Part shown: piece by piece, positions 6,197-6,996 of the stretch
Numbering within the stretch: the stretch's first letter is position 1
Layout: each line of letters starts with the position of its first letter
Virus record (IMG/VR): IMGVR_UViG_2671180921_000012
Origin: a virus
Taxonomy: Duplodnaviria; Heunggongvirae; Uroviricota; Caudoviricetes
Reading direction: 5' to 3' (one strand)
Length of the DNA: 64,000 bases
Notes under the pieces: generated by a model
What the model was told of the DNA's origin: nothing
Seen by the model: the letters and a program-made list of their open reading frames with translations, nothing else
Database searches by the model: none
Made by a program: the position numbers and the translations under genes

Positions 6197-6996
6197 ACAA
6201 CAGGTAAGGGTATTTTGCGACGTCGGAGATCGCCGAGCTTGGCAGAGGGTTCGAATCCCTACGAAGTACCCTTACCGTTGTGATGAATGCGCAGGCTGAT
6301 GCGCGAAAGACATTGCAGCTATTGCGGAAAAGAGCTGTTCGGCGGGGCAATTAAACGCCCGTGAGAGTCTGAAATAACCGCAAGCCGGAGATCAGCACCG
6401 GTCATCACAACACAACAGGTAAGGGCATTCTCCCTTATGGGGCTTGGCTTAAATGCATCGAGTGCTCTTACCGTTGTGATGAAGTGCAGCTCTTTGAAGC
6501 AACCAGAAGATAAGCATCTGGCTTCACAACATAAACCGCAGGAACGACCAATAAACGGTAGTCCGTATGGAGAACACCCCGTTGAGGAAGAGGCCTGGCC
6601 GGAACCGTAACCGGCACTACAACGTTGAGAACACTGGCGTAACGGGGTCATATCCCAATCTACGAATAAATGTTGCGTTGCAGCGTGATAACCAGTGTTC
6701 TCAACATTGTGGTGAATGCACAGGCTGATGTGCCGCAACTACAGTAGTGCGCGCTTTGCGGGGCTTGCTACAACCCTGTGTCGGAGTTCAGCACCGACCA
6801 TCACAGTTTGATTCTCTGGCATGAGCATAACGCTGAAATAAGTCCAGTCTGGTGCGGCCCGATCACCCGCCGTTAGCTCCACGAAACGGAGCACGTAACA
6901 GGTAAGAGCATTCTCCTGTAACGGGTTCATATCCCAATCTACAGGTCCACCAAGAATGCTCTTTCCGTTGCGGTGAATGCGGCTAAGCGCACGCGG
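6197..6996. repeat. Array of four related long imperfect palindromes (candidate structured RNAs)
   Basis: Units near 6197-6305, 6408-6500, 6619-6736 and 6893-6996 share a CACAAC(A)GG / CCGTTGTG base, variable 10-14 bp stems with G-U and compensatory changes, and a conserved GTGATGAATGC tail. Confidence 0.6.

What the first reader, a model, noticed from the sequence alone, without database searches (positions are those of the whole stretch)
6197..6996. Array of four related long imperfect palindromes with compensatory substitutions beside the tRNA genes
Immediately after tRNA-Thr, four units (about 6197-6305, 6408-6500, 6619-6736, 6893-6996) each form a long hairpin. They share a conserved base (CACAAC-A-GG paired with CCGTTGTG, leaving one bulged A), a 10-14 bp middle stem whose sequence differs between copies through G-U pairs and compensatory changes (ggtaagggcattc/gagtgctcttacc versus gttgagaacactgg/ccagtgttctcaac), a variable apex with a T-loop-like hairpin (GGGTTCGAATCCC in unit 1, GGG(G)TCATATCCC in units 3 and 4), and a conserved 3' tail GTGATGAATGCGCAGGCTGATGCGCG that is itself a small hairpin with a paired g:c to a:t swap in unit 3. 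Units 2 and 4 are preceded by a tRNA-3'-end-like segment GGAG(A/T)TCAGCACCG..CATCACAAC, and related fragments occur upstream of tRNA-Asn (5757, 5897). No convincing ORF covers them. Structure-preserving variation suggests function as RNA within the C1-controlled tRNA-ban operon (processed small RNAs, tRNA-like decoys or leader elements).
Basis: partly seen in the sequence, partly recalled or inferred. Interest (0 to 1): 0.75.

Follow-up and report, generated by a model that had tools for sequence, protein, structure and literature searches.

The report
Phage RNA punctuation hairpins between tRNA-like genes
The four hairpins are real RNA structures, part of a large unannotated family that sits between tRNA genes and tRNA-like small RNAs in many enterobacterial phages (lambda included), and most likely mark where a long non-coding transcript is cut into separate RNAs.

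Summary
The window is a P1-like phage-plasmid, and the hairpins lie in the C1-controlled ban-operon leader. There are five units, not four; the fifth is at 5757-5837. Each has a 6-bp base, a bulged A and a 12-14-bp upper stem (consensus GGUAAGAGCAUU/AGUGCUCUUWCC) under a variable apex.

A sequence-blind structural scan finds 212 such hairpins on the sense strand around related phage loci, against 18 antisense and 28 in shuffles. Twelve of 18 pairs show compensatory changes.

The hairpin base always pairs with the first 6 nt of the following RNA.

The P1 reference annotates minus-strand ORFs (plp, upl) over this region; nothing supports them.

Phage lambda carries a canonical unit just after tR', in a leader where RNase III processing was reported in 1988. 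Best explanation (confidence 0.5): RNase III-type processing hairpins in a polycistronic stable-RNA transcript.

Just upstream (5578-5756) lies an apparently undescribed tmRNA-like tag module, found in more than 800 phage records, with no recognisable tRNA-like domain.

The parts
5356..5383 (+). C1 operators Op72a/b overlapping the Pban promoters; start of the transcription unit
   Evidence: The sequence ATTGCTCTAATAAATTTATTAGTGTAAT is present. The homologous P1 positions are annotated as Obanab/P1ban/P2ban. No other sigma-70-like promoter is found in 5300-8600.
5480..5578 (+). 'dicF-like region' of the P1 annotation, ending in an intrinsic-terminator-like hairpin (5546-5568 plus a U run)
   Evidence: P1 misc_feature mapped by alignment; terminator scan.
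5578..5756 (+). tmRNA-like module. Its parts are: GGUUUUCGU..GCGACUUUGCGG..UUUAGAAAC; tag frame 5637-5666 (ANDDLMMVAA) with stop 5667-5669; a pseudoknot hairpin 5683-5705 whose loop GUCG 5694-5697 pairs with CGAC 5714-5717; and hairpin 5728-5753
   Evidence: Rfam tmRNA_permuted scores 24.1 bits, below the gathering score of 47.
5757..5837 (+). Hairpin unit 0 (CACAAC-A-GGUAAGGGCGCUG ... CAGCGUCCUUUCC-UGUUGCG)
   Evidence: Inverted repeat I2; fold z -5.8.
5844..5921 (+). Further tRNA-like module: closing stem UUUCAGCGUAAC/GUCAUGCUGAAA with hairpin ACGGGUAUAUCCCGU abutting the 3' strand
   Evidence: Inverted repeat I17 and reading of the sequence. Not tested further.
6041..6116 (+). tRNA-Asn (GUU)
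   Evidence: ARAGORN; Rfam tRNA 74.5 bits.
6119..6194 (+). tRNA-Thr (UGU); unit 1 starts 2 nt after its CCA
6196..6282 (+). Hairpin unit 1. The apex holds a D-arm-like hairpin (GCGA-CGUCGGAGA-UCGC) and a T-arm (AGGG-UUCGAAU-CCCU)
   Evidence: The same apex type occurs under different arms in L140, L158 and L180.
6277..6411 (+). Cloverleaf module A. Closing stem GUUGUGAUGA/UCAUCACAAC; D-like hairpin 6289-6304; T-position hairpin 6385-6403. The two loops are complementary (GCUGAU:AUCAGC)
   Evidence: MFE cloverleaf; inverted repeat I21; covariation; 96-98% identical copies in lambdoid PL leaders.
6411..6478 (+). Hairpin unit 2, with the 31-nt apex type UCCCUUAUGGGGCUUGGCUUAAAUGCAUC
   Evidence: The same apex occurs in Felixounavirus/Mooglevirus and other loci.
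6473..6531 (+). Mini-module B. Closing stem GUUGUG(AU)GAAG/CUUCACAAC; boxA-like GCUCUUUGAAGCAA at 6487-6500; hairpin CCAGA-AGAUAAGCA-UCUGG
   Evidence: Direct-repeat family D2; fold (weak, z -1.1).
6615..6714 (+). Hairpin unit 3. Its arms are unrelated in sequence to the others (GUUGAGAACACUGG/CCAGUGUUCUCAAC), and it has a C.A mismatch instead of the bulge
   Evidence: Inverted repeat I1; fold z -5.7.
6707..6805 (+). Cloverleaf module C. Closing stem UUGUGGUG/CAUCACAG; D-like hairpin GCAC-AGGCUGAU-GUGC; T-position hairpin GUCGG-AGUUCAGCA-CCGAC
6894..6972 (+). Hairpin unit 4 (CGUAAC-A-GGUAAGAGCAUUCU ... AGAAUGCUCUUUCC-GUUGCG)
   Evidence: Inverted repeat I5; fold z -3.7.
6967..7098 (+). Module D, STnc100-like. 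Closing stem GUUGCGGUG/CACCGCAGC followed by a U run
   Evidence: Rfam STnc100 37.8 bits, E 6e-6, below the gathering score of 47. Fold z -3.6.

Best explanation
The units are cis-acting RNA processing, or 'punctuation', hairpins in a long untranslated polycistronic transcript. That transcript runs from Pban through the dicF-like RNA, the tmRNA-like RNA, the tRNAs and the tRNA-like sRNAs to ban.

Each unit folds as it is transcribed. Its conserved 12-14-bp upper stem stacks on a 6-bp base made from a leader copy (CACAAC) and the first six nucleotides of the next RNA. The bulged A lies opposite that junction.

A double-strand-specific endonuclease, most likely host RNase III, cuts the roughly 20-bp helix near the junction. 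The cut has three consequences:
- it frees the 3' trailer of the upstream RNA, for example tRNA-Thr, for exonucleolytic trimming;
- it discards or releases the apex;
- it creates the 5' end of the downstream RNA, whose first nucleotides can then pair with their own 3' partner to close the cloverleaf.

Shown: the structure, its covariation, its strand, its position between RNA modules, and the coincidence of the junction with primary 5' ends elsewhere.

Inferred: that cleavage occurs, and which enzyme makes it.
For: (1) The structure is conserved through compensatory change. There are 212 sense hits against 18 antisense and 28 shuffled in a sequence-blind scan. Among 42 distinct arm sets, 12 of 18 pairs have double changes in 71 cells, and 0/500 shuffles reach this.

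(2) The base covaries with whatever follows: GUUGUG, GUUGCG, GAUAGU, GAUGGU or AGUUUU. The upper stem stays constant.

(3) Upstream of 89 distinct tmRNA-like cores, at least 43 have a unit 3' arm at the 5' edge: 36 abut it directly and 7 are separated by a small hairpin. In 13 others a TTGACA-17-TAGATT promoter would start transcription at the same (A)GAUAGUUUUCG. The junction therefore coincides with a genuine RNA 5' end.

(4) Units sit between RNA genes. Of 79 units with an upstream tRNA, 36 begin within 5 nt of that tRNA's 3' end (mostly near-identical P1-like copies). All 220 tRNAs in these loci are co-oriented.

(5) Helix length of about 19-22 bp suits RNase III (established knowledge of the enzyme).

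(6) Phage lambda has a canonical unit at 44787-44862, just after tR'. A 1988 paper reports RNase III processing sites in Q-dependent lambda late RNA in vivo; only its citation was seen, not its text.

(7) T7 RNase III sites are likewise intercistronic hairpins, with a pyrimidine-rich 3' strand followed by GAU. The resemblance is weak.
Against: No cleavage data were available for P1 or for any unit. The coordinates of the lambda RNase III sites could not be read.

RNase III does not need a conserved sequence. Yet GGUAAGAGCAUU/AGUGCUCUUWCC, the bulged A, a U.U/U-A position and a U.G pair are conserved across unrelated phage families. This suggests a more specific partner.

Several apex types are themselves conserved, so some units may carry functional RNAs.

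The base competes with the cloverleaf closing stem for the same six nucleotides. That would also fit a folding-insulator role without cleavage.

CRISPRi knock-down over plp, upl and trnT gave no plaque defect in P1 (PMC10695390).
Confidence: 0.5

Rival explanations
1. The units are functional small RNAs in their own right. The long stem would be a handle or protective stem. The variable apex would be the active part: a tRNA-elbow mimic in unit 1, and the conserved GGGGCUUGGCUUAAAUGCA loop in unit 2. It might act, for example, as a decoy for tRNA- or tmRNA-directed host factors or nucleases.
For: Apex types recur under different arms and in unrelated phages. The unit-1 type is in L140, L158 and L180. 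The unit-2 type is in Felixounavirus and Mooglevirus at about 90% identity. Unit 1's apex has a D-arm-like and a T-arm hairpin in tRNA order.
Against: Units with an 11-nt apex exist (L151, L241), so the stem is the common denominator. No Rfam family reaches its gathering score on a unit; the YrlA and tRNA models do not hit them. No free CCA end is present. No target is known.
Confidence: 0.2
2. The units are folding insulators or transcription elements. They would keep neighbouring structured RNAs from misfolding, or help RNA polymerase traverse a long untranslated, terminator-containing leader (rrn-boxA or put-like antitermination), without being cleaved.
For: The 3' arm of the majority type contains UGCUCUU(U/A), the core of boxA. 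Separate boxA-like sequences lie at 6487-6500 and in the mEp460 PL leader. The leader holds terminator-like hairpins that must be read through to reach ban. Units also sit in lambdoid PL and PR' leaders. The base and the cloverleaf closing stem are mutually exclusive.
Against: The boxA-like core is lost in many covarying units (CCCUUACC, GCAGCUUUCC, GUUGGUUUAUC, UGUUCUCAAC). It would also be sequestered in a duplex. HK022 put was not compared. Virulent phages carry the units inside tRNA arrays, where antitermination is less obviously needed.
Confidence: 0.12
3. The repeats matter mainly at the DNA level, as portable homology that lets phages swap tRNA and small-RNA cassettes. This is analogous in architecture to integron attC sites.
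For: P1-like genomes differ by whole modules, with breakpoints in the repeated arms. P1 lacks cloverleaf A plus unit 2. P7 lacks unit 1 and has an extra tRNA-Ser-like gene. Ro157c2YLVW has an extra tRNA-Tyr. Module A is 96-98% identical between P1-like and lambdoid phages. HNH endonuclease genes lie nearby in some loci.
Against: Compensatory changes, G-U pairs specific to the transcribed strand, and base covariation with the downstream RNA are not explained by homology alone. No integrase or dedicated recombinase co-occurs. Recombination at repeats is an expected by-product of any repeated element.
Confidence: 0.1
4. The interval encodes the minus-strand proteins Plp (putative lipoprotein) and Upl, as annotated in the P1 reference genome.
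For: ORFs of 139 aa (6319-6738) and 109 aa (6739-7068) exist on the minus strand. P1 and RCS47 records annotate plp and upl here.
Against: There is no Pfam match. In P1 the plp ORF runs into tRNA-Thr. Its C-terminal part is encoded by different sequence than in this window, because of the module deletion. PGAP annotates nothing under the matches shown, from the 1314 E. coli genomes that carry this DNA. The ORFs are broken or absent in P7, D6 and SJ46. Substitutions preserve RNA pairing on the + strand.
Confidence: 0.03

Closest known systems
RNase III processing hairpins of phage and rRNA polycistronic transcripts (T7 early sites R0.3-R1.3; lambda N-leader and late-leader sites; rrn operon stems)
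   Same: They are intercistronic. They form imperfect helices of about 20 bp with a conserved irregularity. They lie on the transcribed strand, between units that must be separated. T7 sites share a pyrimidine-rich 3' strand followed by GAU. A canonical unit sits in the lambda late leader, where RNase III sites were reported.
   Different: Here the hairpins separate non-coding RNAs (tRNAs, tRNA-like sRNAs, a tmRNA-like RNA) rather than mRNAs. The upper-stem sequence is conserved across unrelated phage families. The apex can carry a large structured insert. Cleavage has not been shown for any unit.
STnc100 / PasD prophage sRNAs (Rfam RF02076; bioRxiv 10.64898/2026.05.13.724894)
   Same: The segment after unit 4 (6969-7089) aligns to STnc100 positions 31-147. 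It shares the closing stem, the GGUGAAU-plus-hairpin start and the CACCGGGAGGCACCCGG hairpin. A full STnc100 is annotated in the same kind of island in Klebsiella phage P01.
   Different: The score of 37.8 is below the gathering score of 47. The hairpin units themselves do not match STnc100. Cloverleaves A and C give no STnc100 hit.
tRNA and tRNA-like structures (including bacterial Y-RNA-like YrlA)
   Same: The cloverleaf modules have an acceptor-like closing stem, a D-position hairpin and a T-position hairpin abutting the 3' strand. Some relatives keep a true T-loop (L144, L212, L248). Unit 1's apex has a T-arm.
   Different: They have no anticodon arm, no CCA end and no aminoacylation identity elements. 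The elbow is replaced by a Watson-Crick loop-loop helix. Neither ARAGORN nor the Rfam tRNA and YrlA models detect them.
tmRNA (SsrA), including two-piece/permuted forms
   Same: This applies to the module upstream of unit 0. It has the resume context UAAAU|GCA AAC GA, and a 10-codon tag ending in hydrophobic-A/V-A. The stop codon sits in a helix-5-like hairpin. A pseudoknot follows, with three to four covarying variants.
   Different: No acceptor stem, T-arm or CCA is consistently nearby. There is no G3:U70. All Rfam tmRNA models score below their gathering scores and align only the tag and pseudoknot region.
Integron attC sites
   Same: Both are imperfect palindromes of 60-110 nt with conserved arms, an extrahelical base and a variable centre. 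Both punctuate an array of co-oriented cassettes.
   Different: There is no integron integrase. The core sequence differs (CACAAC/GUUGUG against RYYYAAC/GTTRRRY). The cassettes are RNA genes. The evidence points to RNA-level selection.

Membership tests
RNase III processing site | Double-stranded helix of about two turns (about 20 bp), tolerating internal loops or bulges | tested here: met
   18-25 paired positions per unit.
RNase III processing site | RNase III-dependent cleavage in vivo or in vitro | not testable with these tools
   No end-mapping data were available. The lambda 1988 paper is cited but is not held.
RNase III processing site | Location between separately functioning RNAs of one transcript | tested here: met
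   Units lie between tRNAs, cloverleaf modules and the tmRNA-like module, all on one strand.
STnc100 (Rfam RF02076) | Covariance-model score at or above the gathering score (47 bits) | tested here: not met
   6969-7089 scores 37.8 bits over model positions 31-147. Units 1-4 give no hit.
tRNA | Detected by ARAGORN or the Rfam tRNA model; anticodon arm; CCA or processable 3' end | tested here: not met
   Only Asn, Thr and Met(CAU) are detected in the window. The units and cloverleaves are not.
Y-RNA-like (YrlA, RF02553) | Score at or above 69 bits; long stem plus permuted T-arm/D-arm domain | tested here: not met
   The only YrlA hit (27 bits) overlaps the two real tRNAs. In unit 1 the order is D then T, which is not permuted.
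tmRNA (for the upstream module 5578-5756) | Tag reading frame with resume codon, stop in helix 5, downstream pseudoknot | tested here: met
   The tag has 10 codons in 119 of 122 copies, giving 18 peptides. Covariation is seen in the H5 hairpin and the pseudoknot.
tmRNA (for the upstream module 5578-5756) | tRNA-like domain: acceptor stem with G3:U70, T-arm, 3' CCA | tested here: not met
   There is no consistent T-arm or CCA within -900/+1200 nt; many loci have none. Rfam tmRNA models score 13-31 bits, below their gathering scores.
Protein-coding genes plp/upl (P1 annotation) | Conserved reading frame with a protein-family signature | tested here: not met
   No Pfam hit. The frame is not conserved among P1, P7, D6 and SJ46. 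PGAP does not annotate it.
Integron attC | R''/L''-L'/R' boxes RYYYAAC...GTTRRRY and an associated IntI integrase | tested here: not met
   The base is CACAAC/GUUGUG, or whatever pairs with the next RNA. The virulent phages that carry the units have no integrase in the loci read. The integrase search was not exhaustive.
HK022 put antiterminator RNA | Two-stem-loop RNA acting in cis on RNA polymerase downstream of PL/PR | not tested
   No comparison with the HK022 put sequences was made.

The most novel reading that the evidence does not exclude
The hairpins, the kissing-loop cloverleaves and the upstream tmRNA-like tag module would together form a mobile, modular 'stable-RNA island' shared by P1-like, lambdoid, Felix-O1-like, Vi1-like and G7C-like phages.

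Its centrepiece would be a tmRNA mimic that has a conserved SsrA-like tag frame and pseudoknot but no tRNA-like domain of its own. Such an RNA would have to exploit or interfere with host trans-translation, or with a defence that senses it, in a way not yet described.

The conserved hairpin sequence would be recognised by a dedicated factor rather than merely by RNase III.
Probability: 0.2. Interest if true: 0.9.

Novelty: new member of a known kind. Interest (0 to 1): 0.6.

Why it matters
Three reasons.

First, it corrects the annotation of two reference phages. P1 plp/upl and lambda orf-64 overlie structured RNA, not genes.

Second, it defines a recognisable, widespread family: hairpin units plus kissing-loop cloverleaves. 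This organises the 'empty' non-coding stretches next to phage tRNA genes, in lambdoid PL/PR' leaders and in the P1 ban leader. It also links them to known prophage sRNAs (STnc100/PasD).

Third, following the hairpins led to a tmRNA-like tag module present in more than 800 phage records. It is apparently undescribed and may bear on how phages deal with ribosome rescue.

The processing hypothesis is directly testable in lambda and P1 with standard rnc mutants.

Tried and rejected
- Rfam scans of the window and six related loci. No family reaches its gathering score on any unit. The miRNA-precursor hits only reflect long hairpins.
- YrlA/Y-RNA idea. Rejected: no hit, and the wrong order of arms.
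- Circularly permuted tRNA/tmRNA reading, with the unit as an intervening hairpin between 3' and 5' acceptor strands. Rejected for two reasons. Cloverleaves occur without a following unit (swi2, P01, HK633). The tmRNA-like module occurs directly behind promoters, without an upstream partner.
- Search for a tRNA-like domain for the tmRNA-like module: T-loop scan, CCA ends, G3:U70. Nothing consistent was found.
- boxA reading of the 3' arm. The core is not conserved in covarying units.
- Generic hairpin finder and generic cloverleaf scan. Both are too permissive to be evidence. Only the stricter 6+1+12 scan and the family-restricted alignments were used.
- RNAalifold on the tmRNA-like block recovered only three short helices. 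A helix-2-like closing stem could be proposed for P1 (ACUUUGCGG/CCGCAGAGU), but I saw no consistent equivalent in the other phages compared by eye.
- Literature searches for a phage tmRNA-like RNA, for P1 plp/upl function and for the lambda late-leader RNase III coordinates found nothing usable. The exceptions were the bare citation of the 1988 lambda paper and CRISPRi non-essentiality in P1.
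Full report
**Context.** The window is a P1-like phage-plasmid.
- The gene order is dmt (3101-5365), the C1 operators Op72ab and Pban (5356-5383), tRNA-Asn, tRNA-Thr, tRNA-Met(CAU) and ban. 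This matches P1, RCS47 and relatives at 97-99% identity.
- Plasmids of about 89-97 kb in E. coli carry 6196-6540 at 100% identity.
- No sigma-70-like promoter other than Pban is predicted between 5300 and 8600.
- The whole 3-kb stretch up to ban is therefore best read as one long, mostly untranslated transcription unit.

**The observation.**
- Four hairpins follow tRNA-Thr, at 6196-6282, 6411-6478, 6615-6714 and 6894-6972. A fifth lies upstream of tRNA-Asn at 5757-5837.
- Each folds much better than dinucleotide-preserving shuffles (z -3.4 to -5.8; 0/200). All four downstream units survive in the MFE of the entire 6119-7100 RNA (z -7.4).
- The common plan is a 6-bp base, one bulged A on the 5' side (a C.A mismatch in unit 3), a 12-14-bp upper stem, and an apex of 29-54 nt here.

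**Family-wide test.** Parts of the interval match 224 phage records by BLAST. From IMG/VR I collected about 120 related loci.
- I ran a scan that knows only the geometry: 6 pairs, a 1-nt 5' bulge, then 12 pairs with at most one mismatch. It gives 212 hits on the sense strand of 362 kb, 18 on the opposite strand and 28 in shuffled sequence.
- Almost all hits are the same element: CACAAC-A-GGUAAGAGCAUU ... AGUGCUCUUWCC-GUUGUG.
- An ungapped alignment of the 42 distinct arm sets shows 96.4% standard pairs. Twelve of 18 pairs have changes on both sides, in 71 cells, and no shuffle of 500 reaches these values.
- One caveat: the sequences were selected for pairing, so the covariation counts and the sense/antisense/shuffle contrast are the informative figures.
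- Conserved irregularities are the bulged A, a U.U or U-A at the third pair of the upper stem, and a U.G at the eleventh.
- All 220 tRNA genes in these loci are on the same strand as the units. The RNA-level reading on the + strand is therefore well supported.

**Re-parsing the flanks.**
- Folded alone, window 6277-6411 and 6707-6805 and the homologous pieces of phages swi2 and P01 all give the same cloverleaf. It has four elements:
  - a 7-10-bp closing stem (GUUGUGAUGA/UCAUCACAAC);
  - three free bases, then a D-position hairpin (GCGC-AGGCUGAU-GCGC);
  - a variable centre;
  - a T-position hairpin (GCCGG-AGAUCAGCA-CCGGY) abutting the 3' strand.
- On 24 distinct copies, the four helices are 97.7% paired, with seven pairs changed on both sides (0/500 shuffles).
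- These helices include a loop-loop helix, GCUGAU:AUCAGC, that was not used to find the copies. It becomes GUCGA:UCGAC in one phage.
- Some relatives keep a canonical T-loop.
- The last module (6967-7098) aligns to the core of Rfam STnc100, but below threshold: 37.8 against 47 bits. STnc100 and PasD are known lambdoid prophage sRNAs.
- Module A is the piece that is 96-98% identical in lambdoid PL leaders.
- The array after tRNA-Thr therefore reads: unit 1, cloverleaf A, unit 2, mini-module B, unit 3, cloverleaf C, unit 4, STnc100-like D.

**Coding rival.**
- P1 annotates minus-strand plp and upl over this interval, and plp overlaps tRNA-Thr.
- The corresponding ORFs here (139 and 109 aa) have no Pfam match.
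- Their content differs between P1 and this window, because P1 lacks cloverleaf A plus unit 2. They are disrupted in P7, D6 and SJ46.
- PGAP annotates nothing under the matches shown, from the 1314 of 5426 complete E. coli genomes that carry this DNA.
- CRISPRi over plp, upl and trnT gave no plaque defect (PMC10695390).

**What the hairpins do.** Three anatomical facts point to processing.
1. The upper stem is constant, but the 6-bp base is always complementary to the first six nucleotides of whatever RNA follows: GUUGUG or GUUGCG before cloverleaves, GAUAGU, GAUGGU or AGUUUU before the tmRNA-like module. The bulged A lies opposite this junction.
2. Consider the 89 distinct tmRNA-like cores. 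In at least 43, the 5' edge carries a unit 3' arm: 36 abut it directly and 7 are separated by a small hairpin. In 13 others, a TTGACA-17-TAGATT promoter would start transcription at the same nucleotides. The junction therefore equals a real RNA 5' end.
3. Units start 1-5 nt after tRNA 3' ends in 36 of the 79 cases that have an upstream tRNA (mostly near-identical P1-like copies).

A helix of about 20 bp between RNAs that must be separated is what RNase III uses in T7 early RNA, in rrn operons and in lambda (established knowledge). T7 sites folded here show a loosely similar pyrimidine-rich 3' strand followed by GAU.

Phage lambda itself has a canonical unit at 44787-44862, a few nucleotides after the tR' U-run. 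It is overlapped by the doubtful orf-64 and followed by a module closed by GUUGUGCUG/CAGCACAAC. [quoted passage not shown] I could not read it, so whether its sites fall in this hairpin is unverified.

I put RNase III-type punctuation at 0.5. The conserved stem sequence, the conserved apex types, and the competition between the base and the cloverleaf closing stem keep three alternatives open: cargo RNAs, insulator or antitermination roles, and recombination homology.

**The upstream tmRNA-like module.**
- Unit 0 is preceded by a block (5578-5756) conserved in 841 phage records. These span Ackermannviridae, Felixounavirus, Gamaleyavirus, Swiduovirus, lambdoids and P1-likes.
- It contains UAAAU|GCA AAC GAx, followed by exactly ten codons in 119 of 122 copies. 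The 18 peptides include ANDDLMMVAA, ANDDVVLMAA, ANEEMYLAVA and ANDEQFLAVA; E. coli SsrA is ANDENYALAA (from memory). The stop codon lies in a hairpin.
- From the aligned sequences, wobble changes in the last codon appear matched by changes across that hairpin (GCU-UAAC-AGC against GCC-UAAC-GGC). This was not formally counted.
- A pseudoknot follows, whose loop/partner pairs covary: CCGA/UCGG, CCAG/CUGG, CCAA/UUGG and GUCG/CGAC.
- Rfam tmRNA models align only this tag and pseudoknot region, and below threshold.
- No acceptor stem, T-arm or CCA is consistently nearby.
- Searches of the held literature found no description of it.
- Its function is unknown. It is the most novel thing in the neighbourhood.

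**Verdict.**
- The finding is real.
- The hairpins are best filed as new members of a known kind, phage intercistronic processing hairpins.
- They belong to a previously unrecognised, widely shared family of RNA modules.

Noticed in passing
window 5578-5756 (tag frame 5637-5669): A tmRNA-like module: an SsrA-like 10-codon tag (ANDDLMMVAA), the stop codon in a hairpin, and a covarying pseudoknot. No tRNA-like domain is recognisable. It is conserved in 841 phage records from many families, is unannotated, and scores below all Rfam tmRNA thresholds.
   Followed up: partly
phage lambda NC_001416 44787-44941 (L251 388-542): Lambda carries a canonical hairpin unit immediately after tR', plus a module closed by GUUGUGCUG/CAGCACAAC. 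The annotated hypothetical orf-64 (44621-44815) overlaps it.
   Followed up: partly
window 5480-5578: The 'dicF-like region' of P1 ends in a strong intrinsic-terminator-like hairpin (5546-5568 plus U7) inside the ban leader. Transcripts must read through it to reach the tRNAs and ban.
   Followed up: no
window 6487-6500; L007 about 3178-3192: boxA-like sequences (GCUCUUUGAAGCAA; CGCUCUUUUUACAA) lie in single-stranded parts of the leader. This hints at rrn-type antitermination of these long untranslated transcripts.
   Followed up: no
window 7123-8167: The P1 tciABC genes are replaced here, as in RCS47, by a 78-aa membrane-like ORF and a 275-aa SPFH/Band-7 lipoprotein-like protein (Pfam PF01145, E 1e-30). 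Some records annotate the latter as 'putative serine protease'.
   Followed up: partly
L006 (P7) 2776-2862; L004 (D6) 2607-2693: An 87-nt tRNA-Ser(UGA)-like gene occurs in P7 and D6 but not in this window. It is followed directly by a hairpin unit whose apex holds the same sequence that follows the unit in lambda.
   Followed up: partly
L133 (PhiSH19) about 1090-1215; L009 (P01) about 2310-2430; L134 (St11Ph5) 1233-1294: These loci hold tRNA-like elements with a T-arm and an ...ACCA/UCCA 3' end but large insertions. ARAGORN does not call them. They lie in the same RNA islands of virulent phages.
   Followed up: no
L009 (Klebsiella phage P01) about 3542-3940; L010 2859-3350: HNH homing-endonuclease genes sit beside the RNA islands (unannotated in P01). 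This is compatible with horizontal spread of the modules.
   Followed up: no
L007 (mEp460) 470-658, minus strand: Rfam finds a C4 antisense RNA (83.6 bits) and isrK (67 bits) near the antirepressor gene of this lambdoid phage. This is the P1/P7-type immunity RNA in a lambdoid context.
   Followed up: no
window 5599-5607 with 5717-5725: ACUUUGCGG can pair with CCGCAGAGU, closing the tag and pseudoknot region like tmRNA helix 2. No equivalent pairing was obvious by eye in the other phage families.
   Followed up: partly
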